Assembly: GCA_965153355.1 (NCBI GenBank)
Contig: OZ231126.1
Span: 36,332,001-36,396,000 of the forward strand
Direction of reading: 5' to 3'
From: Flaccisagitta enflata
Taxonomy: Eukaryota
DNA: 64,000 bases
Part shown: positions 1 to 54,235 of the stretch, piece after piece
Layout: every line of letters begins with the position of its first letter
Numbering within the stretch: the stretch's first letter is position 1
Translations under genes and position numbers: made by a program
The notes under the pieces: model-generated
Databases searched by the model: none
What the model was told of the DNA's origin: nothing
Seen by the model: the letters and a program-made list of their open reading frames with translations, nothing else

Positions 1-214
1 AAATCAATTACCGGCTTTATCAATCCGAAGTATCTAATTATCCCGTAGCTATGCAGGATTTTCAGATAGATATATCCTCTGTCTTTGCATAAAAGTAATA
101 TAGATTTAACACGGTAACGTTTGTCATCTAGTTTGGAAGCATTGTTGTCGATTTGAGAAATGAATTTGTAAATGTGTCCAAAATGCAAAAAGACAAGCAA
201 AAAGACTCTCTCTC

Positions 215-320
<106 letters not shown>

Positions 321-535
321 GAAAACACCATTTAGTTTTGATTAAACTTCCATCACGATCACGCATTTTGGAATCCATTGTGGATGATTTTCTTGGAAGA
401 TGCTTTAGAACGGTACAAAACCGGTTATCTTCCCTCTCCAGTCTCCGGAAACCCTCTGACTCAGGTAATATTCCTGGTTTTGCGTGTCGTTGGATAGCGT
501 CAATCTGGTATTTAAAGGTTGTAGGTTTCTTTGGT

Positions 536-633
<98 letters not shown>

Positions 634-884
634 AAGAGAAAAGATGTCCCCGTGTTGGACACTGGTTCGGAGAGAGCCGAAGAAGAGAGAAAGATCCGAT
701 CTGATGACTTGCACAATATTGGGTACAAAAAACGGGGGCGATTGGAAAATATTCCACGCGACAACGACGATGAGGATAGAGAGAGAGAGAGAGAAATGTG
801 TTTCTGGAATCAAAACGAACGTCAACCGAGTACAACGGAAGCGGTCTTCTCCAAAACCCGGTACTGCCCCCCTCAGAAACGATG

Positions 885-892
885 TATAAATA
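885..892 (+). promoter_or_regulatory. Putative TATA box of TNF ligand A
   Basis: TATAAATA about 180 bp upstream of the ATG at 1069, followed by an A-rich leader. Confidence 0.4.
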
Positions 893-1068
893 CGGCAACA
901 AATCGAGGAGAAAGCTCAAATCATATAGCAAACCAAAAGTGAAAATAAGAAGAAAAAAAAGCGGAAAATCTTACGAGCAAAAACAAAAATCAAAATTTCA
1001 AGAGCAAAATATTCAAAATTTCAAGAGCTAACAACTTCGCATCAAGTATCCGCTTCTGAAACCGAATC

Positions 1069-2273
1069 ATGGCATTTACAATCTCCTCGCCAAAACTTTC
1101 ACTCCAAGATAACGTCGAGAAGCAAAAGCCGACGACAGTTGACGACGTCGCGAAATCACACGTCGAGATGGAGAAGGCGTCGACGTCGTCATCGAACTCA
1201 AGCCTCCGTCCGTGGATGCGCGCCCTTTTGTACGCTTTCGGCGCCGCTGCCTTCATTTCACTTTGCGTCATTGTCGTCATTCTCAAAATTCAACAAGACG
1301 GATTGAAGAAAGAATTAGAAGGTAAGCCACGTGAGTGAATTCCAAAATCTGGAAATTCGAAAAATCAGAACACTCACAAAATTAAGGTTATAAAATTTAA
1401 AATTATTCATATTTTTCTCTTCCCACCACCTCCATCCAGTAGCTTTAAGTATGTTCACAATTTGGCTTCACCACGGGAACTTAGAGATGATAGGATGTAA
1501 CTGTAAGTGTAAGCTACATCAAAATGTGTTTCAAATTATTGAACTGAATCTCGACAATTCAATCTATGAACTTTATTCCATTTTTTTTTCTTTTTGAAAT
1601 GTGTTTTACAAAAGATATGACTCGAATCTACAATCTAATGCTGTATCTTAAAAAACAAACAACCTAATAACTATTCGATGTTCCTATCTTCTTCATGTTG
1701 ACAGAATCGCCACAACTTCTTGCTCTACCGAGCTTTCGAGGGAAAAGAGCTTCGCGCGGCGCCGACTCGGAAAATGTGTGCTCCTTCAAAGGTCCGATGC
1801 CCAGCCAGATGAAAAAGCCCACATTGCAGACAGAGATCGTGGACGCGGACGCAAGTTTGGGCGGGCGCAACCTTGTTACGATCAAAGACTGGGTACCTGA
1901 TTTTTGCCCCCCTTCCAAAAATTTCGAAGTGACGGACGCGGGCATAAAGGTATTGAAAGGAGGCGTCTACTTCCTCTACTCCAACTTCGCGTTCAGTGGC
2001 TGGGGCGCGAATGCAGAATGCGCTTACCGATTGAAATACGGCGCGGACAAGTTCAAGATTTGTCGATGGAAGACGGACAGCGCACCGAAGAACACTCCAG
2101 CGCGGAAGACCATCAGCAGGATTCAGCCCTGTTATTTGGGATTCGCCGCTGAATTGAAAAAAGATGATGTTGTGTCCATTGAATTCAACCACAACGAAAA
2201 ATGTCCAACGAACACACAAAACTTTATTAACTATCATTGGCAGAGCATGATTGGAGTTGTAAAGCAGTCGTGA
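1069..2273 (+). CDS. TNF-superfamily ligand A (Eiger/EDA-like type II membrane protein), 2 exons, ~273 aa
   Basis: Exons 1069-1321 (ATG...GAA G|gtaagc) and 1705-2273 (ttgacag|AA TCG...TGA); the phase-1 junction rebuilds GAA in frame. Layout: cytoplasmic N-terminus, TM helix ALLYAFGAAAFISLCVIVVIL, furin-type RGKR, then a C-terminal TNF homology domain with IKVLKGGVYFLYSNFAF (TNF signature-like) and CYLGFAAELKKDDVVSIEF. AATAAA at 2503-2508. Confidence 0.85.
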
Positions 2274-3671
2274 AATCGCAGTTGACTTAAAAGGAAATTC
2301 CAGTAATTCTTTTGTTACTAACGAGAGAGCCAGTCAAAAGATTTTACAAACTGCTGAGTTTCATTTTCTGAGAAAAAAAAATCACCGTGCATTCTTGTTC
2401 ACTTATTCAAGATCATTCATTTAAGGTATTTATCCTGAGTCTCTTCTCTGTTGCATTCTGTCATGTTCATGCGGCATTTATCACTGAAACAATTGCTTAC
2501 TTAATAAACCACAATTGAAAATTATTTTGATTTCATTCCCGCCTTCGATCTTATTTATTTGTCGTTATTCTTGCGCTTGAATTTCATGTGTTTTCATTAT
2601 CGACATTTTCTTGTTGTGTACAGCGTTGTGTACTGTGTGTTGGAGTGGTTATTTTACTTTTTATTATCCACTGTATATAAACCAAATGTCAAGATACTAC
2701 TCTCTATTTTTTTTCCCCCATGTTGTGACAAGCTTGGAAGAGGTAGTTATCAGCATCTGACAGCTAAAATCTAGAGCAAGCTTTTTGAGTATCTGGAATA
2801 AGATATGTATCGTAATGAGATCTTAAATTTCGCACCAAGTCAAGTCCTAAACTTTTTATTTAAATGACGTGGCCAACGAACCCGAGAAGATTGTGATTAT
2901 TGTAAAACGAAGCACCCACCGACTGCCCACCGAACCGTCTGCCCGACTATCCAATCGACCTGGTACTCGTAAAAAATCTCTTAGACTACACTTTCTTATA
3001 AGAGACATCATATTTTGAACTCAGCCTGGGTTCTCTAAATTTTTTTGGCATTTTGAGGCTCAACGTCTCTTAAACTGTTCTTAATTTTTTCGACGTGCAA
3101 AAAAAAGTGTGCAAATACATCATGTAGCAATCTTTAGTAAAAAACTTTCCTTAAAAATTTCCAAGACTGAATCTCAGCCTGGCCATTCTCTTATTTTGTT
3201 CTTAAAATTTTGGCGAATCTCAGGCTCATGTCTCTTTTGAGAAAGACGCTTGTTAAAAAATTGCAGTGTACCGCAAAGTTCCGCATGATCGAAATAGAAA
3301 ATGGTTAATTGGTGGTAATGCTGGTGCAACTGCAAAAGAAAAAAAAATACTGCAATAAAACTCTGAACATTTTGTCCATAATGCATATTGGTCTTCACCA
3401 TTTTGACGTGCAAACTACGGCTGAGCGATCAATTACATTTTTTATTCAATCTGCATGTTATGATTAGTTGAAGCACGCGAAAAAAAGACGCATTTTTAGT
3501 CGCTTTGTCCGTCGGTCGGTCGGTCGGTTGGTTACACTATACTTTTTTTATTCTTTTTATTTTTAAAAGTCATTTTAAGTCGTTATTGTCATTTTAGTCA
3601 ATAGAGTCTTTAATATTTTAATTCATTCTTAGTCATTCTAAGTCATTCTAGGTCATTTTAAGTCATTCTTT

Positions 3672-4459
3672 GAAAGTTAGACAACATTACTACTCAACCC
3701 TACTTTACCTAAGGATGAGAGCCTTTGGAGCTCTCACTGGTGTTTAATCCGGACCCATCACAACTATCCCTAATAATGAAAAACAACCAAGTCTATCTTA
3801 ACATTATCATTAAATCGTTCAAAAAAACAATTCAACCAAACAGAAAAAATCAATAATTTTAACCTGTTTGCTACACGTGCCAATGACAAGAAAGAGCGCC
3901 AGATGAGTGTGCTGAACCGGCGGGGCCTAATCCAAAGTCCCTCACATCCATCTGATCTTCCCACTGTAAAGGGCTCATGCAACCCACAACTTAAAATCAA
4001 AATCTTCTCCACTGACTGAGACAATTTTCTCAAACATTCCATGTCAACCCAAAATAAGAAGACGCAAAGTAGTCAGCATATCCCTATTGCTTATAGTGGA
4101 CAGATTACCAAATGATGATGATGATGATGATGATGATCCAACGATAATCTAGATATCAAAGGCAATGTTGTTAAAAACCATACCATTAGAGGCAAGAATC
4201 AAGAATCAACCATATGGGATCGCCGGCATTCTATACCATGGTACTGAAATATATGAAAGTTGGACAACATTACTACTCAACCCTACTTTACCTAAGGATG
4301 AGAGCCTTTGGAGCTCTCACTGGTGTTTAATCCGGACCCATCACAACTATCCTTAATAATGAAAAACAACCAAGTCTATCTTAACATTATCATGAAATCG
4401 TTCAAAAAAACAATTCAACCAAACAGAAAAAATCAATAATTTTAACCTGTTTGCTACAT
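3672..4459. mobile_element. Direct-repeat (pseudo-LTR-like) element; second copy in Akt intron 4 (~49647-51282)
   Basis: ~200-bp direct repeats at 3672-3875 and 4255-4459 contain the hairpin TGAGAGC-ctttgga-GCTCTCA. The same repeat-internal-repeat order occurs at 49647-51282, and a fragment lies at ~43112-43165. Confidence 0.55.
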
Positions 4460-5017
4460 ACCGTCATTCTTAGTCATTCTAAGGCGACTAGAAAGATACA
4501 ATTAGGAGTCAGGTCAATTCATTTATTTTAGTCTCGCACGCGACCTATAGGTGTTGGCCTTGTTAAATTGCCAATTTGGTTATTTACTCATTGATTCTAA
4601 ATAAAATGGAGGATAAAACTAAAAGATTGGAGAGCCCATTGGAAAGCCCATTTCTATAGTTTTCAGGATCAAAAAGAATAAGTTCTTAATCATGAGGCGT
4701 TCAGGTATAGTTAAAAAAAAGTTTCAAAGTAATAAATAATCGTTTTCAAAATTTCATAAGAGAAGAACTCTTAAAAACTAGCGTTTCACATTGCTGAGCT
4801 GTAACTAAAACCGATTGAGATGTACAGACTGGGGATTGGTCTAGAATGAAAGATCTTTGGAAAATCTACAAAATTGCTGTAACGGAAAAGTGCTGGTGAA
4901 AAAGATCAGTAATAATTCTATCAATCAAAAAAACTCCAAAGTCATTTATACTGAAAAAAAAATTTTGAACATTTTATTTGTTGTCTTTTTTGTCAATAAA
5001 TAAAGAGGTGCGTTGTT

Positions 5018-5798
5018 TTTAGATGCGTCCTCGCATCTCTAATAGAGGGTGTGTCCTTAGGTAATGAGAAAAATTCAGAACGCAATTTCTGAGGTTTTCT
5101 CTTTTCTCTTCAATTCTCTTCATTTCTCTTCATGTCTCTTCATTTCTCTTAATTTCTCTTTGTCTCATCTTTTTAGTTGCGGACACGCAACTCTATAAGA
5201 GGCTTTGTCCATCCGTCCGTCCGTCCGTCCGTCGGTCCGTCCGTCCGTCCGTTGGTCCCTAACCATCGAGTCAAAAAGTGGGAAAACGCGCATTTCCGCC
5301 CCTGCCCACCCGTCCGCAATTGATGGCCGTGTATCCGGCCTTGTTTCTTTCTGTCTCCATGTATCTCATCATGTGCCTCTTAATGTAACTCTTCCTGTGT
5401 CTCTTCATATGTCTATTCATATTTCTCTTCTTGTGTCTCTTTATGTGTCTGTTCATGTGTCTCTTAATTTCTCTCTTCATGTCTGGGGTATATCTTGATG
5501 TCTTGAATCTTGATATCTTTATCTTAGTGAATATTAACATCTTACATCTAAAGAGGACGCAACTATTGGACATCTGTTGGCCTTTTTAGTCGCGTGCTAC
5601 GCGACTCTACACCCTGCTTTGTCGGTCGGTCTGGTGGTCGGTCGGTTGGTTGGTCAGTCGGTCGGTCCCCTTTATACTTTTTCGGCGTTTTTGAGCTTTT
5701 TGAGCCTACTGCTCCTTTCCCAAATGCTGTGGTAACCTACCCCAGCACTTCTCCTGCCCACCCGCACGCGACTGGGGTAGCCGTGTATCCGGCCTTGT
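5018..5798 (+). mobile_element. Stack of three nested/adjacent HINE-like elements (5018-5582, 5172-5345, 5585-5798)
   Basis: Repeated TTTTAG(T/A)...hairpin (GTCGCGT..ACGCGAC)...(GTCC/GTCG)n...CCCTGCCCACCCG...GCCGTGTATCCGGCCTTGTT architecture, with insertion at T runs. Confidence 0.7.
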
Positions 5799-6457
5799 TT
5801 TTATTCGCATGGCAATGATCTAAATCTGGTTTGAATCACTTATTCTCAGGGATCAGATTCGTAATATTTTCTTTGTCACTGATCAGGGTACCTCGAAACT
5901 TACTCATCACCCAAAAGAATGCTACAGCAAAAGATGATTATGTCGAGCCCTATTCATACACACATTTATGGCATTGGATAGAACATTGAATGTGATGACT
6001 AAGGATAATTCAATTAGCCGCGGCGTGTTTTTCGTAATGACGCATAAACTATACGTACTCTTCAGAGAATGCCATTGTGACTTAAAGTATGAAAAATAGG
6101 AAAGAAAAAAAAAAGAAAGAAAGAAAGAGAGAAATAAAGAGCGAAAGAGAGACAGATAGACAGACAGATTTGGAATTGAAGAAGGCAGAGACAGAGGGTA
6201 ATAAGTAATAACGGGCTTAAGGGACAAAAGCGGTGCTCAGCGACCATATAAACCCCTCGCTCTCCACTTACCATTTGCTGATTGCTTGATAACAGAATTC
6301 TATTCAAACCCGAGACGCAACACGAGTCTTGTTGTGTTACACGACAACATGAGATAAACAAATGACGCATCAAAAAGTGATTTTTTCAAACAAGAACAAA
6401 AGACACATTTTGTCGATGGAGTTGTTTGTTTTTTTTGTTTTGTTTTTTTTTTGGGGG

Positions 6458-9400
6458 GATAAGGTTTCTCTTCTTCCGGTCTTGAGTTTCTTTTTGGCTC
6501 ATTCACTGATCACTTTCTTCTCCTCCATTATTTTTATGTCCGCCCCGTGATTGGTTTGTATCAAATCAAACGTCCCTACGCCCCCGCCTGTGCGTGATCA
6601 TACGGTTATACGATTTTTTTCTGCTCCACTGTTTATCGGCAAACAAGGCCAAGAGATGTCCAATAGATGCGTCCTCTTTAGATGTAAGATATTTTCATAC
6701 AAATTTTCAAGATATAAAGATATTAAGATATAATGATATGAAAATATAAAGATACAGAGATAAAGACAAAAATATTAACTGATTCCTCCCTTCCCCTCCT
6801 CATTCGACTCCCCGCCCCATCACCCTCTCACCTCCCCGCCTAACCCCATCCCATCCCACCCCTTCACCCTCCCCCGCCTATCCTCACAAAGAGACATGAA
6901 GGGACTTGGAGAGACATAAAGAGACATGAGGAGACATAAGACACATAAAGAGACATGAAGAGACATGAGAGACATAAGAGACCTAAGAGACATATGAGAC
7001 ATAAGAGATGTAAGAGATATAAGAGGCATAAGAGATATATGAGACATAAGAGACACACAGGAGACATATGAGACATAAAGGAGACATATAGGAGACAAAA
7101 GAGACAAAAGAGACAAAAGAGACAAAAGAGACAAAGAGACATGAGAGACTTAAGATACCTAAGATACATAAGAGAAATAAGAGACATAAGAGATATAAGA
7201 GACATATAGGAGACATAAGAGACATAAGAGACATATAGGAGACAAAAGAGACAAAAGAGACAAAAGAGACCAAAGAGACAAAAGAGATGAAAGAGACATA
7301 AGAAATATAAGAGACATGAAGAGACAGGAAGAGAAATGAAGAGAAAACCTTGAAAATCGCGTTTTGAAATTTTCGCGTGACACTCAGACAGACATTCAGA
7401 CAGACAGACCTACCAAGGGACAGACCCTCTTATAGAGATGCGAGGACGCATCTAAAAAGTCCATTTGCTGAGTCAACTGCCAATTTTGGACTTCAAGGGA
7501 CTCACCGGCAATTTGAGTTTAATTGACACAGGGGCCGACAGAGAAAATTCGGGCCTCTATACATTTTACACATCATACAATAAAAAAACTCCCCCCCCTC
7601 CCCCTTCGTCACAACGGATGGCGCAAACCAAAGCATTCAGTTTTTGTATAGAATGCTTATCAATTTTCGTTAATTCAATCAAAGGAAGAACTCCCTACAA
7701 ATGATGAACAATGTACTTTGATCTATAGCGAAAATACAAAAAAAATGTAGCAAGCAAATAAAAAGAAATAAAGTAAATGAATTAAGTAGGAAATAGGACC
7801 CCAAACTTTTTTCTAACCTTTTTTCTTTTTTATCTTTTTTTTTTTTTTTTTTTTTTTTTTTTCTTTTTTTCTTCCTTTTCCCTATTCTATCCTCTTCTTC
7901 TCTATAACAATTGAAGAGCCCCAGAGGCCCCCTGAGGCCCGGGCCCCTATTTTGTATAGGTTTTTTAGGCTCTGTCGGCCCCTGTTTGACACACGCACAC
8001 GCTCACGCTTTTTGGGCAGCGGCCCCGAAAGGGGTGATGACCTATGGTTTCACACGTATGGAGAATTTTCTTCTTCTCCTCCCTCCCTCTTCTCCGCCTC
8101 CGTCCCTCCCTCTCTAACTCAAATCTAGCCAAGAGACCCAAATCCTAGCTCAATTTCAAACCTTAGTCTTGAGACCCAAATCCCAGCTGCAAGGTGATAA
8201 GCTCAGCCTTGAGGCCTAAATGTCAATCACTGGAAGGAGATTCCTCACAATGAGTCATATGTGCAAAAGTATGGGTCATCGACTGCCTTCCTCCCTTCCA
8301 TCACAACCTACTTAGGCTGACCATCTAACGCTATTGCGACTTTTGGTCCTACACCCTCACCCGTGCGTGATTATGCGATTATACGATTTTTAATCGCGTG
8401 CACGCGACTCTACAACCTGCTTTGTCCGTCGGTTGGTCGGTCGATTGGTCAGTCACACTTTATTTTTTTATGATTTTATTTTTTTTTACCTCACTGCTCC
8501 TGCCCAAATGGTCTGGTGACCTCAAATATGGCCCCTGCCCACCCGCACGCGACTTCGGTAGCCGTGTATTTGGCCTTGTTTTCTGCTCCACCGTTTATTA
8601 AGAAAAAAGTCAGTCTTCGACTTTTTGACATATTCCAGAGAAACATGGTCTTTATTTTCTTATGAAGAAGTTCAGGCTCCTGACCGCCTGATTGGGCCCT
8701 CAAACAAAACTGATAGGTTAAGTTAGGTAAAGAAGTATGAGTTACTTCCTGACGTTTCTGAACATGGAATTTTTTCTCATCTACGAAACGTAAATTTGCG
8801 AAAAAAACTAGGGGGACTATAAATCATCAGCTTATGTCGTTTTCAAGTTATGTTGTAATTCATTATCAAAACTGAGGAAAAAATATGGTCAAACAATTGT
8901 ACGCTTATTTTCTAAAACTTGTCCTCACTCATCTTTCTCAGAGTCAAAGTTCCACTTCACATGTATCATTGCGCGTCATCAATCTTTGAAAAGCACGGCA
9001 AATCATAATAAAAATATTTCTTGGTGATAGTCTGATAGAAGAACGCTCCTCAATTCATGTCTGGCTACACGCAGCGGCAAGAGAAAAGCGATCTGGCGCG
9101 GAAAAAATCATTCCGCCCCTAATTTTATACACATGCGCAACATACCATAACAGAGTGAGACACGCAGATAGATAAGGTTTCTCTTCCGGTCTTGAGTTTC
9201 TTTTTGGCTCATTCACTGATCACTTTCTTCTCTTCCATTATTTTTATGTCCGCCCCGTGATTGGTTTGTATCAAATAAAACGTCCCTACGCCCCCGCCTG
9301 TGCTTGATCATACGGTTATACAATTTTTTTCTGCTCCACCGTTTATCGGGAAAAAAGTCCATTTGCTGAGTCAACTGCCAATTTTGGACTTCAAGGGACT

Positions 9401-11068
9401 CACCGGCAATTTGAATTTAATTGACACAGGGGCCGACAGAGAAAATTCGGGCCTCTATACATTTTACACATCATACAATAAAAAAACTCCCCCCCCCTCC
9501 CCTTCGTCACAACGGATGGCGCAAACCAAAGCATTCAGTTTTTGTATAGAATGCTTATCAATTTTCGTTAATTCAATCAAAGGAAGAAATCCCTACAAAT
9601 GATGAACAATGTACTTTGATCTATAGCGAAAATACAAAAAAAATGTAGCAAGCAAATAAAAAGAAATAAAGTAAATGAATTAAGTAGGAAATAGGACCCC
9701 AAACTTTTTTCTAACCTTTTTTCTTTTTTATCTTTTTTTTTTCTTTTTTTTTTTTTTTTTTTTTCTTTTTTTCTCCCTTTTCCCTATTCTTTCCTCTTCT
9801 TCTCTATAACAATTGAAGAGCCCCAGAGGCCCCCTGAGGCCCGGGCCCCTATTTTGTATAGGTTTTTTAGGCTCTGTCGGCCCCTGTTTGACACACGCAC
9901 ACGCTCACGCTTTTTGGGCAGCGGCCCCGAAAGGGGTGATGACCTATGGTTTCACACGTATGGAGAATTTTCTTCTTCTCCTTCTCCCTCTTCTCCGCCT
10001 CCGTCCCTCCCTCTCTACCTCAAATCTAGCCAAGAGACCCAAATCCTAGCTCAATTTCAAATCTTAGTCTTGAGACCCAAATCCCAGCTGCAAGGTGATA
10101 AGCTCAGCCTTGAGGCCTAAATGTCAATCACTGGAAGGAGATTCCTCACAATGAGTCATATGTGCAAAAGTATGGGTCATCGACTGCCTTCCTCCCTTCC
10201 ATCACAACCTACTTAGGCTGACCATCTAACGCTATTGCGACTATTGGTCCTACACCCTCACCCGTGCGTGATTATGCCATTATACAATTTTTAATCGCGT
10301 GCACGCGACTCTACAACCTGCTTTGTCCGTCGGTTGGTCGGTTGATTGGTCAGTCACACTTTATTTTTTATGATTTTATTTTTTTTTACCTCACTGCTCC
10401 TGCCCAAATGGTCTGGTGACCTCAAATATGGCCCCTGCCCACCCGCACGCGACTTCGGTAGCCGTGTATTTGGCCTTGTTTTCTGCTCCACCGTTTATTA
10501 GGAAAAAAGTCAGTCTTCGACTTTTTGACATATTCCAGAGAAACATGGTCTTTATTTTCTTATGAAGAAGTTCAGGCTCCTGACCGCCTGATTGGGCCCT
10601 CAAACAAAACTGATAGGTTAAGTTAGGTAAAGAAGTATGAGTTACTTCCTGACGTTTCTGAACATGGAATTTTTTCTCATCTACGAAACGTAAATTTGCG
10701 AAAAAAACTAGGGGGACTATAAATCATCAGCTTATGTCGTTTTCAAGTTATGTTGTAATTCATTATCAAAACTGAGGAAAAAATATGGTCAAACAATTGT
10801 ACGCTTATTTTCTAAAACTTGTCCTCACTCATCTTTCTCAGGGTCAAAGTTCCACTTCACATGTATCATTGCGCGTCATCAATCTTTGAAAAGCACGGCA
10901 AATCATAACAAAAATATTTCTTGGTGATAGTCTGATAGAAGAACGCTCCTCAATTCATGTCTGGCTACACGCAGCGGCAAGAGAAATGCGATCTGGCGCG
11001 GAAAAAATCATTCCGCCCCTAATTCTATACACATGCGCAACGTACCATAACAGAGTGAGACACGCAGA
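6458..11068. repeat. Tandem duplication, ~1.9-kb unit (6458-9170 and 9171-11068)
   Basis: Both copies start gataaggtttctcttc and end cagagtgagacacgcaga; near-identical with scattered substitutions. Copy 1 has an extra ~0.8-kb insertion. Confidence 0.95.
6641..7457 (-). mobile_element. HINE/Helentron-like non-autonomous element with internal 9-bp (AGAGACATA-type) minisatellite
   Basis: Present in duplicate copy 1 and absent in copy 2; inserted in an A/T run with no evident TSD. Ends AACAAGGCC...TAAAAA; subterminal inverted repeat TAGATGCGTCCTC/GAGGACGCATCTA; (CAGA)n core. Confidence 0.75.
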
Positions 11069-13264
11069 GTGACGCAGAAAATGCTTCTTAGAAGACCGCG
11101 CTACATTGGGTATTCATCCTCATGGTGAAGTAGATCGAGAAAGAAAAGTGAAATAACTTCTAGATCTGAAGAGAGAAATGAACATAAACATGAACATAAA
11201 TTGTTTTGACCATGGTATAGACGAAATACTTTTGCTTAAAAAAGCTATTGATTGACTGCTCTGTCGTTGACCTTTCAGTCCCTGGATTGTAACTCTGAAC
11301 AATCAAGTGTTTCTCCTTGAAGTAAACATATTTATATTTGTCTATCTCATTCAACACAATCAAATTGACGCTAAGTTTTCGTAAAGAGGGCCGCGAGCAA
11401 GCTCGTTTCTGTGTCAATTGAGACCAAGAGCGTCGAGATTGGTTGCAAATAAAGCCTGTAAGCACTTTCAACACTTCAGGGGGCGAGTTCCCTTTAAAAG
11501 TAGTTCCGTTCAATGTCGTATTAATTAAAATGAGAAGTTCACTACCTAGTTAAGTAAATTTGATAATTTTCTTTCATATGGCGCCAAGCAACTAGCTCCT
11601 TGACAAATATTTTTTAGTTATGAATCTTGAAAGATTTTTTTTACGAAAAATTCTAATCAAATTTTTCTCAATTTTTTTTTATGGTTTTGTCTAGGATCAA
11701 TAAAGGAGTGTATTTATGTTTGTTTAGGCATGCAAATGTAAGAAAACATGTTTATGAGCATAGCTGCTCATCTGTGAGGTTGTTTTTGAGCATTATGGCT
11801 GATTTACCTCATTTAGCTCTTCTTTTTTTTTCAAATACGATAAATGAATAGATATTTTGATATATGTTTGAGCAAGCAAATATGAGAAAGCATGTCGCTT
11901 AGCAAAGTGTTTTAGCTACTCTAGCTGATTTAGCTCATTTAGCTCAGTTTTCTTTTTTTTTATTCTAAATGGGATAAATCAATAAATGTTTTGATGTGAG
12001 CATGCAAATACGGGAAAGCATGTTAGTGACCATACCTGGTTGTCCGGTTGAGTGATTTGGGGTATTTTAGCTCATCTTGCTCATTTGGCTCAGTCGTATC
12101 TATCTCCGATTTTAAGTGCAATCAATATATACAAGTGCTCTTGATTCATTCTATAAAATAAAAAAAAATTGCAGTGACTGAAGATAAAAGATTGGCGAAA
12201 AGTGACCAATGCTTACGACTTTTTTCCCTACGGCGGTTGTCGCCATTACTGGTAACGAACATCATCTCTGTAGAAGAGATAGGCCAAGTAACCATTGCGT
12301 AAACGAGGTAGTTACAAAGTTATTTAACAATGCAATGCACGAAGGCATGATAAGAATTGCAGTCGTTTGCCCGGGGGCAGTGGGAGGTAGAAATCCCCTA
12401 TGTTTTTTCTCGACTGTTAAAGAAGAAAAAGAAGAAGAAGAAGAAGAAGAAGAAGAAGAAGAAGAAGAAGAAGAAGAAGAAGAAGAAGAAGAAGAAGAAG
12501 AAGAAGATTAAGTGGCGTGGGGCGACAATATCGTTGCGGACGGGTGGGCAGGGGCGTCCAAACCCCAACCACACCCAACGCCCTCCCCCACACATAGGAA
12601 ATTGGACCCCGTGTTGGGTATTAGGGGTCTGAATTATGTGGCCCTTGAAGCATGAGGAGTCCCGAACATTTGAAATTTGGACTACTACCCGAATTAAAAA
12701 GAACGCAAGTTTTTCATAGGATTGTTCAGATTGGACTATATTTCACTACTGAACGGCATTTTGATGGCTTCTGTCCATCAAATTTGAGAGTTTTAGTCAA
12801 TAGAATTCAGTAACTGATGAGAAAAAGCCGCGCGAAAGCATGAGGTATTTTGGAGAAAAAAATTTATGGTATTGGGAAATATCCATGTTGATTTGGGGGG
12901 TTTTATCACACTTACCCGCTACAAGTGATTCATTTTTCATGGCAGACATTGGGTAGCTTTCATATGAGCACCATGATTATTGACGAAATGAGTATAAATG
13001 CTTATTGGTTACAAAAATGACAACCATAGAGAAATAATTTCCAATTAGAAATGGCGTCTTTCTCCTCCAACTGCGAAATGAAATTTTGACTTGCACACCT
13101 TCATTTGAATGTAACTTCTAAACGAATAAAGCTACAAATGTGGGATTGCGCTCAAAAGAAAGTCCTTGAAAAAAGCTTCAATTTGGTCACCAATAAATTG
13201 TTTCTGAATTTAGCCAAAGGCGCGTAAATTGGCATAGAAAAAACTTGCGTTTTTTTTAATTCTG

Positions 13265-13640
13265 GTAGTACATGCTAGCTCGGATCTTAAAAACTCAACA
13301 TTGTCAGAGCCTTTATGTTCGGGAGATGAGAGCACTATTTCATGATACAAAGCACCAAAAAAAAAAATTGGAAGTCCTCAGATGTCAGGAAATTGGCGCC
13401 GCCACCCCCCTCATATTCCATAGAAAATATACAAGAAGGATTTTAACTTTTAATGTTCCCTATACTTTACTATGGAAAAGAGGGGGTATGGCGGCGCCAA
13501 TTTCCTGACTTCTGATGACCTCCAGATTTTTTTTGGTGCTTTATGTTGTTCCACCTATCATACCATGAAATGGTGCGCGCATCTCCTGAACTTAAAGGCT
13601 CCGATGATGTTTGGTCTTAAGGCTCCAGGCTACTATATGC
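13265..13640. mobile_element. Foldback/MITE-like inverted repeat
   Basis: GTCAGGAAATTGGCGCCGCCA...TGGCGGCGCCAATTTCCTGAC core with long imperfect arms. Confidence 0.6.
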
Positions 13641-13945
13641 CCAGAAATTATGTCAGGCCTCGACGAATGAACAGTACGCCGATTGAACAGGGTTGAAAAA
13701 AACTCGGAGAATCGCAAAAATTGTCCAATATACAACCTTCAACCGTAAAAGTACCCCATAGGAATCAAAGAACCGTAAAAGAATAAACCAGGCTAACTAG
13801 GCCAAGTAGATGCGCCGTATGGATCGTCAAACGAATGCGTGACCCAACCGACATACCGACCAACGGACACAGCCAGCTATAGAGGTGCTTTGGCGCACCT
13901 AAAACAAGGTCATTAGACCTAAGTCGCGTGCGAGGGCACTTTTAC

Positions 13946-14384
13946 ATAGTCGCAAAAGCGTTAGATGGTCAGCGGTACCCGTTGCCCCTATGTGAGTTTA
14001 TGTGGGTGTGAGGTGGTTAGAGGGGCAGCGGCCCCGAAGGGGCCGATGACCTATGCTGTTTTTATTTGAGCCTCAAGGCTGGAATTAGGGCCTTGAGGCT
14101 GGGATTTGAGCCTTGGGGCTGGGATTTGAGCCTCGAGGCTGGGATTTGAGCCTCGAGGCTGGAATTTGAGCCTCGAGGCCGGAATTTGAGCCTCAAGGCT
14201 GGGATTTGAGCCTCCAAGCTGGGATTTGAGCCTCCAGGCTGGGATTTGAGCCTGGAGGCTAGGATTTGGGTCTTGAGGCTGAGATATGAGCCTTGAGGCT
14301 GGGGGGGGGTACACTGAAAAGGGAGAAATTTCTGCATATGTGAAAGCATAGGTCATCGGCCCCTTCGGGGCCGCTGCCCAAAAA
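13946..14384 (-). mobile_element. Minisatellite-carrying element with ~35-bp inverted repeats (related copies ~8008-8345, 9911-10245, 19418-19938, 27916-28593, 36841-37368)
   Basis: GGGCAGCGGCCCCGAAGGGGCCGATGACCTATGCT and its reverse complement flank a ~20-bp tandem array (GGGATTTGAGCCTCGAGGCT)n. Confidence 0.75.
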
Positions 14385-15399
14385 GGCAGACAGACAGACA
14401 AATGGACTAAAACATTTAAAAAGACCTATGAACTAGCAACAAAAAGTCTTGAAAACAACTTTGTTACAAACCAATGGACAGACAGACGGACGGACGAACG
14501 GACGGACAGACGATCAAATAAGTGGCTTTTAGAGGTGTATGAATGACATAAAAACATTTAAGGATATTTAAAATGTCTTTGAATTGGCTGTAACACCCTT
14601 TGAACAACTTGTGACAGACGGACTGAAAGACCAACCAAAAAGTGGCTTATAAAGGTTTATAAATGCCTCAGAAACATTCGAAAACATTTAAAATGTCTTT
14701 ATTTTGTGTGAAAAGCCTTTTAAACAGTTTTGTTACCGACCGACCCACCAACTGACCGACCAACTGACCGACCGACCGATTGACCGACCGACCGACCGAC
14801 CGACCGACCGACCGACCGACCGACCGACCGACCGACCGACCGACCGACCGACCGACCGACCGACCGACCGACCGACCGACCGACCGAAAAGTGGCTTATA
14901 GAGTCGCATAACACGCGACTAAGAAGAAAGAGGAATCGTGAATATTCATCTCTGGGCGAAGAAGTCACCCTTCGATGCATCCGGGAATCATCCCCCAAAT
15001 CGTCTGATCGGGGACTCCCAATTCCTCCACCTAATCAGCATCCAAGATGATGACTTTTAAACTATTTTGCAATCCTGGAGAAATAGTGACAAATCCAGTT
15101 TAGAACCAGGGTTTAGAACACCCAGATTATGCCGCTCAATGTTTACTTAAACGTCGTTTGAGTTTCACATAAAAAGCGCGACAGATTGAAGCAAGTCTCA
15201 AATTCTCCGGATCCCCGAATCAAGTTACAATCCGAACGAGTTTGCGTTCATCAACATCATTTTTCGCAAAACAAGAAGAAAAAACAACAAACCAAAAACT
15301 AAAAAGTCAAACAAGAAAAAACGATTATCTTTGAAGATACGTCTATCCGTATCCATATCTCTAAAAAAAAAAATAAAAGAAAACAATAACAAGAAAAAG

Positions 15400-17534
15400 A
15401 TGGCTTCCAACAACACTAATTATGCCGACTTTAACAACACTGCTTGTATCGTTGAAAATCTTCAACTCCTTTCTGGTCAAGCTACGGATGCTCATAATAT
15501 GGATCTCCAACAAGAACTGACAAAATCCAAGCCAAAAATAGAGAAAAAGAAACTCGATCTGTCCGACTGGCGGCGTTGGATTCCATTTGGCGGTGTCGTT
15601 GTTCTCGCTCTTGGTGTTATTGTGGGCGTCATCGTCTGCATTGGTGGCAAAATTCGTCCAGATGCGCGAAATCAACTTGACGGTACGTATTTATTCAGAC
15701 AAGATTAAAACGAGTACTGGTAGACGTTTTACACATTTTCATCCAAAGCTACTATCTAGGAAATAAGTTTGGCAACACCCTTAAAAAGAGATATCTCAAC
15801 TTCTCATTCAGATAAGTAAACAAAATTTATGAGCATTTTAGTCTACGCCAAAAGATCTACTATCTGAGTTCAATATTGTTTCTGTGCATCAAACCATTCA
15901 AAAATACCCTTAGTTTGAAGTTGATCATGTATTTTAAAAAATAGCCAAACAGTTGGATTTCTTTTTTCTCCAACACTTCTATCTTTGAAACACTTTCAAA
16001 TCTTAATAAGAAATGATACAAATATGTGGATTGCACCACTGGTTAGAGCTTGAACTCTAGTTTTATAATCTCATGGATTTTTACTCAGATTTGTAAAGAA
16101 AAGCAACTCAATTTTACAGTTAAAATGACCAAAATTTATTGTTTGATAACCACCTCTTAGGTCCTTGGAGTTGTGATGAATAAACCTCACTTGTAGTCCC
16201 TAAATTGGATTGAAAATTGTTTTTCTCTTTTTTTATTTAGTATAAAGACAAAAATAATCAAAAACAATCAGGAACATAAATTTTGAGCATATGAGGGAGA
16301 AAGCACACTGTCAATCGAAAGTGTCGCCCAACTTTTATCCTAGATAGTACTGCGTGCAATGGCTAAAGAATTGATAATTTGAGAGAATATGCATAGTTAT
16401 TCTCGGTAACTGATAGAAATATGCGAGTAGCTTTGCTTTATCCAAGTATTGGAATTTAGCTGTTGAGCTGTTGCCGACATTTAACTCGTCTGCGAACAAA
16501 GCGTAATCCGAATCCACAATCTCAAGGCAAGATAAACTGTCTTAACGCTGTTGCATACTGGAATTCAGATGCCGTCGCTTTTTTCTTATTTGATTTTACC
16601 ATCATAACAGTCTCTGATGCTAGATAATAAGGAAACTACATGCTTAAACATTGAAAACTGATGAAAAATCGAGGAAGGGAGTTGTTGTCTTGTGGTTCCC
16701 TTCATTAGGAATTGTTTTTGCCTTTCCGCTTCAGCTTTAAAAAAAAAGATTCAAATGATTAACTTTTTTCAAAATCGTTGAAAGATGCAGGGTAATACCT
16801 CTTTTTAGGCTTCCCCAGCGGCGCTCTTCTTTACACATGCGCTAGCACTCCGCTTCTAGTAATGGTGTTATCAATTCTTAATTTTTGTCTAATTAACTTC
16901 ATACTTCACAGCTCCGTCTCCCCTTCCGCAATTGGCTCGTTCTGGAAGAGGAAGAAGGCACCTTCGCAATCAACCAGACGCTGGAAACGTTTGTCAACTC
17001 GAGGGTCTCAACTTGACCCAGCACGAAGTCGGTGACATCAGAACCAAAATATCCAAACAAGGAAATGTCACGATCGCCGATTGGCAGAGGGCCCCGTGGC
17101 TGCCAGATTCCGGCAAATGGAAGAAGAACTTCGCCGTCAAAAATGACGGAATTTTAGTCAAACGCGACGGGATCTACTTCGTCTATGCGAACTTTCCTTT
17201 TACCGGCAACGGCGGAAGTGGAACTGAATGCGCGTATCAACTGCGGTATGGCAACAACAACAACAATAACAACATGATCAACAACAACAACGCAATCAAC
17301 AACAACAACATAATCGACAACAACAAAGTTCGATATTGCCGATGGAAAATCGACGCAAGTACGGGTTCCCACACCATCGCCAATATCCATCAATGCTATT
17401 TGGGTTTCGTGGCGAGAATGTCGAGAGGCGACAGACTCAAAATCATTTTCAACCACAACGAAAGATGCAAAACAAATGTCCACCATTTTAAAAACAATCA
17501 ATTCCTTAGCGTCCTTGGAATCATCAAACAATAG
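15400..17534 (+). CDS. TNF-superfamily ligand B (paralog of A), 2 exons, ~301 aa
   Basis: Exons 15400-15682 (MASNN...GAC G|gtacgt) and 16912-17534 (ttcacag|CT CCG...TAG), with the same phase-1 intron after the TM helix (IPFGGVVVLALGVIVGVIVCIGG). Furin-type RGRR. TNF domain motifs ILVKRDGIYFVYANFPF, ECAYQLRYG, CRWK, CYLGF and FNHNERC are collinear with ligand A. Confidence 0.85.
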
Positions 17535-24016: not shown

Positions 24017-26691
24017 GAAAAGAAACCTTTTTGTGGTGGAGAATTTGTGCGGATTTTGCGTTGGCGTCGAAAGAAAAGGGTCAAAAAGCTCGACCTCAGA
24101 ATCTGAGTCGATTTCCTTTTCGCCCTCTGCCGGCTTTCCCTGTGATAGAAACATTTACCATTTTTATAGTCGTTGCCTAAGCAACTCTATAAGAGGATGT
24201 GTACGTTGGTCGGTAGAAAACGCGAAATTTGAGATGAAGCAAAATCGACTAGAATATAAATAGTGATATTTCAGCACGACTGCTTCTGCCCTTCCAAATA
24301 ACAGCTCCCACCCTGTCCCTGCCCTCCCGCATTATTGACCAGGCCACCCGCCAGCGACTACTGATTGGCCGTGTATCCGGCCTTGTTAATTGGAATTTCT
24401 CTTCATCATTTCATTTTAGTCGCTGATTCACGACTTTTTCAGAGATTTTGTCCGTCCATCGGTCCGTCCATTGGTGTACAATAGTCGAGTTGGAATCGGA
24501 TTACAGATGCCTGAGTTCTCACTTACTGCAAGCCAGGCAATTAAGACCATGAAATGGTTTATGGATTTTTAATGTTAAATAAGTAAGCATAGTGAGGGAT
24601 ATTTTTCTACAAAGAATAGCGCCAATGTATCAACAAGTGACGCGGGGTCAGAATATCGTTGCGAACGGGTGGGCAGGGGCGTCCAACCCCCATCCACAGT
24701 GGGCCTTAGTTGAGTACGAGTTCAAAAAAATCCCCAGTGATAGTGACTTGTAGGTAGAATTTATAGTTAAGAATTGATGTAAACCTTTCCCTCGAAAATT
24801 TTTAGCAAAAATCGTTAAAAAGTATTGATTTTCTCATATATTTACATATAGATCTCAAGGATATATCTATTTTGAAATTTTGATCCAAGATTCCAATCCA
24901 ATCATTTTATAGATCAAACTATATACTTTCATGAAAAAATAAGATTTTCATATTTCAGGCTACTATTAGTACCGTTACTTTCTTTGTAACGGTGGCATAG
25001 AAAATGAAAAAAAAAATTTTGATGAATACTGTATATAATATATACTTATAGTGCGACCTATCAAATGATTGAAAATTTTACTAGGAATATGAATCGTGAA
25101 TCAGAAATTCAAAACACATAGATCGTAAAGTTTTATATCAAATATTTGAAAAATTCAAAACATTTTAGTGATTTTGGCAAAAATTTTCAAGGGAAATTTT
25201 TTTTTAAGGGTCGACTTCAATCCTCCACTATAAAATGTACCTACTGATGTAAGTCAATACCTTGGATTTTTTTTTTAACCCATATCCAATCAAGGCCCAC
25301 TGTGCATCCACACCCCAACCCCCAGCGGCGTAGGGCAGGAAAATGGACAGGGGCGTCAGGCCCCAATCTGTGTCCGACTGAATGCAATGTCCGACTCACT
25401 GTGTAATTAGATTACAGTTGAAAAAAGTAGGTAAAAAACTTATAAATTCAATATTTCAGGAGAGGGGTGCAGGTATCAAGACAGTTTAAGTATTTAAATT
25501 ATATCTAAGTTTTTAGAAATATTACAATATGCCAAATGTTTAAAACTTTTTTAACTGATTTTTAAAAAAGAGTACAAAAAATTTATGAGAAAAAAATTTA
25601 TAAAATATAAAAATAATATAAAATGAAAAAAAAACATTAATTGAAAAAAAAAATATAGGTGAAAAAAAGTTTTAAAAGATGAAAAAATCAAAAGACAAAA
25701 TCAAGTTATGAAAAAAAAATGAATAGAACAAATTCATACAATAAAAATTTTATTCAATCTTAATGATTGTAACAGTTTACTCATCTTTGCTTGTGTACCT
25801 CCCCTGTCCATATTCCTTTGTTGGGAATCCATTTTAATAATGTTTTTTTTTTTCCAGTCATTTTGATCAAGTTAAAGGTGGTACAATCCATGGTTACAAA
25901 AATGACTGATGTAACATTGTAACAATTACAAACACCAAGATCCTGAGAGAATCAAGCTTAATTAAGCAAAAAAGATTTTTCTTTCAACATCTTATAAACC
26001 TCAGCACATACTCAGACAGACAAAGAAAGTATCTAAAACGCTTGTTTCCCCACTTGATAACTCGATCATTGCCTACAGACAGACGGACAGAGACAGCCTC
26101 TTATAGAGTTGCGTGTCCGCAACTGAAAATATCGGGGAAAGACCTAACCAGTAAACTACACTCACTTTTGAATACTCGATTAAAGAAAAGAATTACCTTT
26201 TTGTCGCAGATATCTGCGGGTAAATTCCTTTTCCACTCGCAGGCGAGTCTTTTCTGATTCCAAGCGAGATCGCCGTCACATTTCATCGGTGATCCGACTT
26301 TGCCGATTCCAGTGCAAATGTAATAAAGGCGACAGTCGGACTCGTCACCGAAAAACCCGATGCCCGGACACGAGAAGGAGAAATCAGCGCCATCTGCGAT
26401 GGGCGCTTGGAATTGAGCAAAACATGATTCGGAAACAGTTGCCGTTATAGATTGAGTCAAGATGGAGGGGAGGGGGCGGTTTGAAGTTTCAAAACGCACC
26501 CCAAACCCGAGAAAAATCCTAAATTTTGAACTAAAACAAGCCATCAGACTCTCGGAGTTGTCACGTCATCAACACTTAACAGTCACATCATCTTTGCCAA
26601 ACTTTTACTTACGAGTTACTCCGATTATGCCGAATAAAACGCTGAGGAACGGAAGGCTCAAGCTTGATGTTAACTGCGTAAAATCAATCAT
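23281..26691 (-). CDS. Secreted peritrophin-A/CBM14 chitin-binding protein with S/T/P-rich stalk and hydrophobic C-terminus, 4 exons, ~190 aa
   Basis: Exons 26691-26613 (signal peptide MIDFTQLTSSLSLPFLSVLFGIIGVT, C|gtaagt), 26405-26197 (six-Cys CBM14: FSCPGIGFFGDESDCRLYYICTG...KCDGDLAWNQKRLACEWKRNLPADIC, AAG|gtaatt), 24139-24027 (AG|gtttct) and 23452-23281. Phases 1, 0 and 2 are all compatible. The exon-2 acceptor could be 12 nt downstream, and the last exon is the least certain. Confidence 0.75.
23659..23887. mobile_element. MITE with CTATCT termini and TA TSD (related: 15752-16347 in TNF-B intron, 28939-29530)
   Basis: ~50-bp TIR CTATCTTGCTAATAAGTATATCACCATCTGAAAA...; the other two copies are TA|CTATCTAGG...CCTAGATAG|TA. 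Confidence 0.8.
24695..25304. mobile_element. CAC...GTG MITE with 4-bp TSD (Chapaev/Transib-like)
   Basis: TIR CACAGTGGGCCTT/AAGGCCCACTGTG flanked by CATC on both sides; inserted in a HINE end. Confidence 0.7.

Positions 26692-46696: not shown

Positions 46697-54235
<7,539 letters not shown>

What the first reader, a model, noticed from the sequence alone, without database searches (positions are those of the whole stretch)
1069..17534. Tandem pair of divergent, Cys-rich TNF-superfamily ligands in an invertebrate
Seen: two same-strand genes 13 kb apart with identical architecture (cytoplasmic tail and TM in exon 1, phase-1 intron, furin site RGKR/RGRR, entire TNF domain in exon 2). Their N-termini show no obvious similarity, while the TNF-domain motifs are collinear. 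Five Cys are shared (NVC, ECAY, CRWK, CYLG, NE[K/R]C), more than is usual for a TNF domain. Established: Drosophila has a single TNF ligand (Eiger), and furin shedding of type II TNF ligands is known for EDA/BAFF/APRIL. Inference: a lineage-specific expanded cytokine family, possibly heterotrimerising or binding different receptors, with extra disulfides. The genes are hidden in the ORF track because exon 2 has no true start codon.
Basis: partly seen in the sequence, partly recalled or inferred. Interest (0 to 1): 0.8.

Follow-up and report, generated by a model that had tools for sequence, protein, structure and literature searches.

The report
Two neighbouring TNF-family cytokine genes
Two neighbouring genes in a marine invertebrate genome encode divergent, membrane-anchored TNF-family signalling proteins from a little-described four-cysteine branch of that family; they look real, but they are an ordinary kind of gene.

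Summary
Both loci are two-exon, same-strand genes with an ATG-started exon 1 (tail plus one strong transmembrane segment), a GT-AG phase-1 intron, and an exon 2 holding a dibasic RxK/RR site and a whole TNF homology domain. Both exon-2 products pass Pfam TNF (PF00229) above its curated cut-off, and no C1q match was returned. AlphaFold models are confident, and their best structural matches are BAFF, APRIL, EDA, TL1A and Eiger, above the first C1q-type chain.

The two domains are 36% identical and belong to a clade with four invariant cysteines. All relatives found are unnamed marine metagenome or metatranscriptome proteins. The fifth shared Cys (NVC) is limited to this pair and one relative.

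Gene 2 carries a 24-residue Asn-rich insert, encoded by a CAA-type repeat, in the D-E loop. A 2:1 mixed trimer model passes its controls, but this cannot separate homo- from heterotrimers.

Splicing is not verified. A neighbouring AKT gene places the host beside pancrustaceans.

Verdict: real paralogous TNFSF ligand genes, a new member of a known kind, of moderate interest.

The parts
1069..1321 (+). Gene 1 exon 1 (CDS): 51-residue cytoplasmic tail, transmembrane anchor (about 1222-1284), start of stalk; phase-1 donor at 1321/1322
1322..1704 (+). Gene 1 intron (383 nt, GT-AG, 31% GC)
1705..2273 (+). Gene 1 exon 2 (CDS with stop): stalk, RGKR site, TNF homology domain (about 1761-2270)
1737..1748 (+). 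Gene 1 dibasic proprotein-convertase (furin-type) motif RGKR
   Evidence: motif column shared with P0003, P0004, P0005, P0007, P0020, P0022, P0024
2503..2508 (+). AATAAA polyadenylation signal of gene 1; an RNA-library contig covers 2247-2404 of the 3' UTR
15010..15019 (.). Palindromic kappaB-like decamer 381 nt upstream of the gene 2 ATG (a single match, a lead only)
15400..15682 (+). Gene 2 exon 1 (CDS): cytoplasmic tail, transmembrane anchor (about 15577-15648), start of stalk; phase-1 donor
15683..16911 (+). Gene 2 intron (1229 nt, GT-AG, 34% GC)
16912..17534 (+). Gene 2 exon 2 (CDS with stop): stalk, RGRR site (16947-16958), TNF homology domain
17252..17326 (+). In-frame CAA-type repeat (period 3 and 18) encoding the Asn-rich insert in the D-E loop of gene 2

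Best explanation
These are two paralogous genes, each encoding a type II membrane TNF-superfamily ligand. Each has a short cytoplasmic tail, a single signal-anchor helix, a 27-residue stalk ending in a dibasic RxK/RR site, and a C-terminal TNF homology domain (THD) of the EDA/BAFF/APRIL/Eiger structural type.

Shown here:
- the sequence features and the family assignment;
- the predicted fold;
- conservation of four cysteines and of the dibasic site across the clade.

Inferred:
- the precursor sits in the membrane with the THD outside;
- a furin-type convertase cuts after RGKR/RGRR and releases a soluble THD;
- the THD forms the usual threefold trimer through its A/C/F/H sheet;
- the Cys in strands E and F form the disulfide known from Eiger, EDA, BAFF, APRIL and TWEAK, and the other conserved pair (start of strand D, G-H loop) forms a second, clade-specific bridge;
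- the trimer signals through TNF receptors, most likely single-CRD receptors of the Grindelwald/Wengen kind.

The paralogs are old (36% identity) and probably differ in receptor contact, because gene 2 carries a 24-residue repeat-encoded Asn-rich insert in the D-E loop.
For: - Pfam TNF above its curated cut-off for both exon-2 products, and for 19 of 21 clade members at E<=0.01, with no other family returned.
- PDB profile search: the 60 listed of 81 matches are all TNFSF ligands.
- AlphaFold2 models: pLDDT 84.9 / pTM 0.80 for gene 1 and 83.6 / 0.78 for gene 2, both with jelly-roll strand order.
- Foldseek on PDB ranks EDA-A2, EDA-A1, APRIL, TRAIL and Eiger first.
- VIA-align over 48,161 chains: BAFF Z 15.5 (rmsd 2.3, 132 aligned), EDA-A1 14.4, TL1A 13.5, APRIL and S. 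frugiperda Eiger 13.4; the first C1q-type chain (Cbln1) has Z 12.2 at rank 13.
- Four invariant Cys in 21 sequences. By the model's secondary structure, C119 lies in strand E and C142 in strand F, matching the E-F bridge described for Eiger (PMC6684607, passages).
- The dibasic motif sits in the same alignment region in at least seven relatives.
- One hydrophobic anchor per exon 1, equal 27-residue stalks and same-phase introns, and an exon/intron GC contrast.
- A distant relative, P0024, is a contiguous ORF with TM, polybasic site and THD.
- Three short contigs from RNA libraries of one study lie on gene 1 exon 2 (1953-2111, 2003-2180) and its 3' UTR (2247-2404), with 2 differences each.
- Complex model of two gene 1 THDs plus one gene 2 THD: score 0.79, best of 3 controls 0.00. 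The mark was reached by 51 of 78 solved complexes and 2 of 108 mismatched pairs. Runs agree in at least 82% of contacts and partner pLDDT is at least 70. The interface uses strands A, C, F and H. Because TNF trimers are solved, this pass shows likeness only.
Against: - No read or contig bridges 1321/1705. Exon 1 has no RNA cover.
- A polyA RNA-seq run offered as 'organism A' gave no read on gene 1 in the roughly 6% of it that was read.
- RNA libraries can hold DNA, so the three contigs are weak evidence of transcription.
- Gene 1 passes Pfam TNF by only 0.7 bits.
- Both nucleotide differences seen in exon 2 are nonsynonymous, and the exon differs about as much as the UTR. The metagenome variant P0001 differs at 5 of 188 residues. 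At this shallow depth there is no sign of purifying selection, though the numbers are small.
- Disulfide pairing, cleavage, trimer state and receptor are all inferred. No model coordinates could be inspected.
- No AATAAA or ATTAAA lies within 1 kb downstream of gene 2.
Confidence: 0.75

Rival explanations
1. One copy, most likely gene 2, is a silent or decaying duplicate rather than a working cytokine gene.
For:
- It has no near-identical counterpart in the protein collections.
- No canonical polyA signal lies within 1 kb downstream.
- A repeat expansion sits inside its domain.
- The gene 1 variants seen are all nonsynonymous.
Against: - Both frames are intact over 273 and 301 codons, with canonical splice sites and good start contexts.
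- All four clade-invariant Cys and the core motifs are kept in gene 2, which scores higher on Pfam TNF than gene 1.
- The insert is in frame, lies in a surface loop, and leaves the predicted fold confident.
- 36% identity with retained motifs implies long survival of both copies.
Confidence: 0.12
2. The THD exons are real but the proposed first exons are wrong. The true products would then be secreted or multidomain proteins that use other upstream exons.
For: - Distant clade members are fusions or carry N-terminal signal-like starts: P0008 has THD+EGF+VOMI, P0009 has SRCR+THD, P0017 has an F5/8-C-like domain+THD, and P0015 is a further example.
- No junction-bridging RNA was seen.
- The exon-1 products have no detectable homologues and no similarity to each other beyond the hydrophobic stretch.
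Against: - In both genes the nearest upstream ATG-started frame on the same strand ends at a consensus donor in the phase the THD exon needs. It also holds one anchor helix followed by 'KI' and yields an identical 27-residue stalk.
- Exon-1 GC matches exon 2 rather than the intron.
- Type II topology is the family norm, and P0024 shows it in one ORF.
Confidence: 0.1
3. The two products are obligate partners that form mixed trimers, in the manner recalled for lymphotoxin alpha/beta, rather than two independent homotrimeric ligands.
For: - The genes are adjacent and on the same strand.
- The mature part of gene 2 has an odd number of Cys (5) against 6 in gene 1.
- The 2:1 model scores 0.79 against a best control of 0.00 (51 of 78 solved complexes and 2 of 108 mismatched pairs reached the mark), with at least 82% contact agreement and partner pLDDT at least 70.
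Against: - The controls were unrelated proteins. The tool states that close relatives of a true partner also pass (10 of 12), so the pass does not separate hetero- from homotrimers.
- No homotrimer model was run for comparison, because the cap was 1 job.
- Co-expression is unknown.
Confidence: 0.1
4. The domains are C1q-like or another TNF-like jelly roll (lectin or structural head) rather than TNF ligands.
For: C1q-type heads share the fold and score Z 11-12 against the gene 1 model. A C1q-bearing cluster appears at rank 26, score 0.82, in the protein atlas.
Against: - No PF00386 match was returned at E<=10 for either gene, or at E<=0.01 for any of the 21 members.
- TNFSF ligands fill the first 12 VIA ranks, with Z up to 15.5.
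- All listed Foldseek rows and all 60 listed sequence-profile hits are TNFSF ligands.
- There is no collagen stalk, and the N-terminus is a signal anchor with a dibasic site.
Confidence: 0.02

Closest known systems
Eiger (Drosophila melanogaster; Spodoptera frugiperda structure 6I50; Eiger-Grindelwald complex 6ZT0)
   Same: Type II membrane TNFSF ligand of a protostome with a jelly-roll THD (VIA Z 13.4 and 12.4; Foldseek ranks 11 and 13). Cys are present in strands E and F, where Eiger has its single disulfide (PMC6684607, passages).
   Different: - Only 14-19% identity in the structural alignments.
- The profile E-value to Eiger (3.4e-4) is no better than to TL1A, CD40L, EDA or BAFF, so there is no sign of orthology.
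- There is a second conserved Cys pair.
- There are two neighbouring paralogs, whereas Eiger is described as the sole ligand in Drosophila (PMC6684607 passages; PMC8024323 abstract in the listing).
Vertebrate EDA / BAFF / APRIL / TWEAK group
   Same: These are the best structural matches (BAFF Z 15.5, EDA-A1 14.4, APRIL 13.4; EDA tops Foldseek). They share the E-F disulfide position and a dibasic site in the stalk. Furin shedding of EDA, BAFF and APRIL is recalled, not checked in any call. BAFF also has a functional long D-E loop, the 'flap' (PMC5865128, abstract only).
   Different: 12-18% identity, no collagen region as in EDA, an extra Cys pair, and a gene 2 D-E insert that is a low-complexity Asn repeat.
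Darwinula stevensoni A0A7R9A6L1 (ostracod), three TM+THD units in one gene model
   Same: It is the nearest printed case of several adjacent TNFSF units in a crustacean, and it is discussed as a possible heterotrimer (bioRxiv 10.1101/2024.07.27.603686, section 4 read in full).
   Different: That record is one fused model of three units. Here there are two separate genes 13 kb apart, each with its own start and stop. Its sequence could not be compared, so it is unknown whether it belongs to the four-Cys clade.
TNF / LT-alpha / LT-beta tandem cluster of mammals (recalled)
   Same: Adjacent TNFSF paralogs, some of which form mixed trimers. The LTa1b2 structure 4MXW appears at Z 11.3.
   Different: There is no orthology, and mixed trimers are not shown here.

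Membership tests
TNF superfamily ligands (Pfam PF00229) | Sequence match to the TNF homology domain above the curated threshold | tested here: met
   Gene 1 scores 23.7 bits and gene 2 scores 30.7 bits against a cut-off of 23. 19 of 21 clade members match at E<=0.01.
TNF superfamily ligands (Pfam PF00229) | Ten-strand jelly-roll fold closest to solved TNFSF ligands | tested here: met
   The models have pLDDT 84.9 and 83.6. TNFSF ligands fill VIA ranks 1-12 (Z 15.5-12.4) and all listed Foldseek rows.
TNF superfamily ligands (Pfam PF00229) | Type II topology: N-terminal cytoplasmic tail, single signal-anchor, C-terminal THD | tested here: inconclusive
   The predicted exon 1 of each gene holds one hydrophobic segment (Kyte-Doolittle 2.65 and 2.95), in phase with the THD exon. 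The exon join is not confirmed by RNA.
TNF superfamily ligands (Pfam PF00229) | Assembly into a threefold trimer | tested here: met
   This is a prediction only. The 2:1 model scores 0.79 against a best control of 0.00 (51 of 78 solved complexes and 2 of 108 mismatched pairs reached the mark), with at least 82% contact agreement and partner pLDDT at least 70. The interface lies on strands A, C, F and H. The pass may reflect likeness to solved trimers.
TNF superfamily ligands (Pfam PF00229) | Binding to a TNFR-type cysteine-rich-domain receptor | not testable with these tools
   No genome is held, and no receptor candidate was seen in the window.
EDA/Eiger/BAFF/APRIL/TWEAK subgroup | Disulfide linking strands E and F | tested here: inconclusive
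   Invariant C119 lies in model strand E (115-122) and C142 in strand F (140-150). The bond itself could not be checked because no coordinates were available.
Eiger orthologue | Closer to Eiger than to other TNFSF members | tested here: inconclusive
   Profile E-values: TL1A 7e-6, CD40L 4.5e-5, EDA 1.3e-4, BAFF 1.7e-4, Eiger 3.4e-4. No tree with named TNFSF sequences could be built, because no reference sequences were available to the tools.
C1q domain (PF00386) | Sequence match to the C1q model, or best structural match to C1q heads | tested here: not met
   No C1q match at E<=10 for either gene or at E<=0.01 in any of 21 members. The best C1q-type chain has Z 12.2 against 15.5 for BAFF.

The most novel reading that the evidence does not exclude
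The pair belongs to a so far unnamed four-cysteine (two-disulfide) TNFSF clade of marine arthropod-like plankton, separate from Eiger. In this reading the neighbouring paralogs co-assemble into mixed trimers, and a repeat-encoded, length-variable Asn loop in the receptor-facing D-E loop tunes receptor choice. That would make it an invertebrate counterpart of the lymphotoxin alpha/beta or BAFF/APRIL arrangement.
Probability: 0.1. Interest if true: 0.6.

Novelty: new member of a known kind. Interest (0 to 1): 0.35.

Why it matters
Arthropod TNF biology rests on a single ligand, Eiger. PMC6684607 calls it the sole member described in arthropods (passages). A recent survey reports that many arthropod proteomes have just one homologue (bioRxiv 10.1101/2024.07.27.603686, section 4).

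A second, structurally distinct ligand type with an extra disulfide would widen that picture. It is present as two old paralogs in an animal whose AKT groups beside pancrustaceans, and it is common in marine plankton sequence data. It would also give candidate cytokines for zooplankton immunity and stress studies.

The clade includes fusions of the THD to EGF/VOMI, SRCR and discoidin-like domains. These are unusual for TNF ligands and worth a separate look.

Tried and rejected
- Whole-genome paralog search: no genome is held for this window.
- RNA test of splicing: one lay on window 660-3600, covering gene 1 only. I chose it because the cap was one call and the 13-kb spacer holds long repeats. 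No joint at 1321/1705 appeared. Only three specific short contigs lay on exon 2 and the 3' UTR. One depth-2 piece at 1452-1550 continues for 255 letters unlike the window and was taken as a repeat. In the polyA run X4, 7 reads were laid, all 90-95% alike and all on a repeat near 3.5 kb. Gene 2 was never laid.
- Word-indexed homologue search: 2 hits with gene 1 and 4 with the alignment, all unnamed.
- Cluster look-ups: 20 clusters, with only ENA, JGI/IMG and Logan as sources. Two carry the name 'hypothetical protein'.
- Related loci: alignment A1 was too divergent for the tool. A2 in metagenome contigs gave 182 pattern matches, none confirmed. P0002 gave two weak loci (28-31% over 52 residues), which I judged chance and did not use. 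A2 in viral contigs gave 13 pattern matches, none confirmed.
- C-terminal half of gene 1 against PDB, to see the Cys aligned with Eiger or EDA: only a chance helicase hit at E 1.2.
- Model coordinates for checking disulfide geometry: not available in the script box.
- Taxon from the AKT exon: too conserved, with sponge and coral at 93% and insects at 88-90%. The full-length AKT tree was used instead.
- kappaB-site scan: 23 matches against 8.1 expected, but most lie in repeats at 32.7-33.0 kb. Only one lies upstream of gene 2 and none upstream of gene 1.
- Literature searches found no paper describing a four-Cys TNFSF clade or copepod/zooplankton TNF ligands. Subscription journals and bioRxiv supplements, including the sequence lists of 10.1101/2024.07.27.603686, were not visible.

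Full report
**Observation**

I read both loci and assembled them in a script.

| Feature | Gene 1 | Gene 2 |
|---|---|---|
| ATG | 1069 | 15400 |
| Exon 1 | 1069-1321 (253 nt, phase 1) | 15400-15682 (283 nt, phase 1) |
| Donor | GAAG\|GTAAGC | GACG\|GTACGT |
| Acceptor | pyrimidine-rich, ending ...GACAG\| before 1705 | ...TTCACAG\| before 16912 |
| Exon 2 | to the stop at 2271-2273 | to the stop at 17532-17534 |
| Spliced product | 273 aa | 301 aa |

- Each exon 1 has one strongly hydrophobic 19-residue window (Kyte-Doolittle 2.65 and 2.95).
- In both products the hydrophobic segment is followed by 'KI' and then exactly 27 residues up to the last Arg of RGKR or RGRR.
- Exon GC is 49/50% (gene 1) and 45/46% (gene 2), against 31% and 34% in the introns.
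- The exon-2 products are 36% identical (E 5e-40). They share NVC, ECAY, CRWK, CYLGF and NE[K/R]C.
- The exon-1 products share only the hydrophobic stretch.
- tblastn finds no third copy in the 64 kb.

Gene 1's exon-2 frame has an in-frame ATG just inside the intron, and a metagenome gene caller used it (P0001).

**What the domains are**

- Both exon-2 products pass Pfam TNF (PF00229) above the curated cut-off: 23.7 and 30.7 bits against 23. No C1q match was returned at E<=10.
- A profile of 21 clade members searched against all PDB sequences gave 81 matches. The 60 listed are all TNFSF ligands: an APRIL-BAFF single chain at 5.9e-13, TL1A 7e-6, CD40L 4.5e-5, EDA 1.3e-4, BAFF 1.7e-4, Eiger 3.4e-4 and TNF-alpha 4.3e-4.
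- AlphaFold2 models are confident: gene 1 has pLDDT 84.9 and pTM 0.80; gene 2 has 83.6 and 0.78.
- Foldseek ranks EDA-A2, EDA-A1, APRIL, TRAIL and Eiger first.
- An independent all-against-representatives alignment gives BAFF Z 15.5, EDA-A1 14.4, TL1A 13.5, and APRIL and S. frugiperda Eiger 13.4. The first C1q-type chain (Cbln1) has Z 12.2 at rank 13.
- The protein atlas gives TNF clusters at 0.92-0.90 and a partly C1q cluster at 0.82.

**The clade**

phmmer of gene 2's exon 2 against 1.84 billion representatives found 23 proteins at E<=0.001 and 11 at E<=1e-10. I looked up 20 of their clusters. All come from ENA, JGI/IMG or Logan assemblies, and none has a name beyond 'hypothetical protein'.

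In the alignment of 21 sequences, seven columns are invariant. Four of them are Cys: C105, C119, C142 and C166 in gene 1 exon-2 numbering. 19 of the 21 hit Pfam TNF at E<=0.01, and no other family was returned.

- The NVC cysteine occurs only in the two window genes and P0002; the others have Phe there.
- After the dibasic site, gene 1 has six Cys and gene 2 has five.
- By the model's secondary structure, C119 is in strand E and C142 in strand F. This is where Eiger, EDA, BAFF, APRIL and TWEAK carry their single disulfide (PMC6684607, passages).
- C105 opens strand D and C166 follows strand G. I infer that these form a second bridge special to the clade. Without coordinates the pairings remain inference.
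- An RxxR or RxK/RR motif lies in the same region ahead of the domain in P0003, P0004, P0005, P0007, P0020, P0022 and P0024. This supports convertase shedding as a family trait.
- P0024 has TM, polybasic site and THD in one ORF.
- More distant members are fusions: THD+EGF+VOMI, SRCR+THD and F5/8-C-like+THD.

**Relationship of the two genes**

I built a tree of 23 rows: the two window domains, 19 relatives, and the domain slices of P0008 and P0017. I left out P0001 and P0025 (near-identical to gene 1), P0009 and P0021.

- Gene 1 pairs with P0002 at 100/99.
- Gene 2 is their sister at 80/88.

The duplication is therefore older than the split from the source of P0002. It is not a recent private expansion.

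**Gene 2's insert**

Gene 2 carries a 24-residue Asn-rich insert encoded by an in-frame CAA-type repeat (17252-17326, periods 3 and 18). In the model it lies between strand D (105-113) and strand E (138-145), with pLDDT 51-73. From memory, the D-E loop contacts receptors in several TNF ligands. In BAFF it is the functional 'flap' (PMC5865128, abstract only).

**Assembly**

I ran one complex job with two gene 1 THDs and one gene 2 THD.

- Score 0.79, best of 3 controls 0.00.
- The mark was reached by 51 of 78 solved complexes and 2 of 108 mismatched pairs.
- The runs agree in at least 82% of contacts, and partner pLDDT is at least 70.
- The contacts lie on strands A, C, F and H, the usual trimer face.

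TNF trimers are solved and the controls are unrelated proteins. The pass therefore shows likeness and compatibility of the two protomers. It does not show a preference for mixed trimers.

**Expression**

The run search returned three marine metatranscriptome runs of one study and one polyA run of a coded organism. I laid them on 660-3600.

- The three metatranscriptome runs gave one short contig each: on exon 2 at 1953-2111 and 2003-2180, and on the 3' UTR at 2247-2404. Each has 2 differences.
- Nothing lay on exon 1 and no contig bridged the junction.
- The polyA run gave no read on the gene in about 6% of its reads.

This is weak evidence that gene 1 is transcribed, because DNA in the libraries is not excluded. 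It is no test of splicing.

Both exon differences are nonsynonymous when read: 2036 A>T changes K to N, and 2106 A>G changes K to E. P0001 differs from the window at 5 of 188 residues. The numbers are small, but there is no sign of purifying selection at this shallow depth.

**Host and surroundings**

No genome is held.

- The window is full of microsatellites.
- It contains a CBM14 chitin-binding exon at 26.1-26.6 kb on the minus strand, and an AKT-type kinase gene at about 47.3-53.6 kb on the plus strand.
- A metatranscriptome protein, P0047, matches the window's AKT exons. In a tree of 18 AKT proteins it is sister to Artemia plus five insects at 96/93. No lophotrochozoan, nematode, chelicerate, copepod or malacostracan row was available, and P0040 was left out.

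The host is thus a marine protostome, most likely a crustacean, but the taxon is not settled.

**Comparison and novelty**

- Drosophila has one ligand, Eiger (PMC6684607 passages; PMC8024323 abstract in the listing).
- A 148-proteome survey reports that many arthropods have one homologue, while molluscs have up to 27. It also reports an ostracod gene model with three TM+THD units (bioRxiv 10.1101/2024.07.27.603686, section 4).

Multiple and adjacent TNFSF units in invertebrates, even in a crustacean, are therefore in print. My six literature searches found no description of a four-Cys clade or of zooplankton TNF ligands. Supplements and subscription journals were not visible.

Noticed in passing
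window 47319-53637 (+): An AKT/PKB-type kinase gene in several exons (PH-domain region, Pkinase, Pkinase_C). A metatranscriptome protein, P0047, matches its exons.
   Followed up: partly
window 26101-26565 (-): An exon encoding a chitin-binding Peritrophin-A (CBM14) domain, E 1.4e-9.
   Followed up: no
window 7454-9350 and 9352-11250: A tandem duplication of about 1.9 kb at 97-100% identity, in the spacer between the two TNF genes. It may be a very recent duplication or an assembly artefact.
   Followed up: no
window 15010-15019: A palindromic kappaB-like decamer 381 nt upstream of the gene 2 start. None lies in the 1068 nt available upstream of gene 1.
   Followed up: partly
window 2036 and 2106: Both differences seen in RNA-library contigs over gene 1 exon 2 change the amino acid (K to N, K to E). 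The exon differs about as much as the 3' UTR.
   Followed up: partly
proteins P0008, P0009, P0017: Distant members of the same four-Cys clade are fused to EGF+VOMI, SRCR or F5/8-type-C-like domains. These are unusual architectures for TNF domains.
   Followed up: partly
whole window: Very high density of di-, tri- and tetranucleotide microsatellites (CT, GT, AAG, AGAA, ACCG and others) and low gene density, with about five genes in 64 kb.
   Followed up: no
window 1-1068: Gene 1 starts only about 1 kb from the window edge, so further paralogs upstream cannot be excluded.
   Followed up: no
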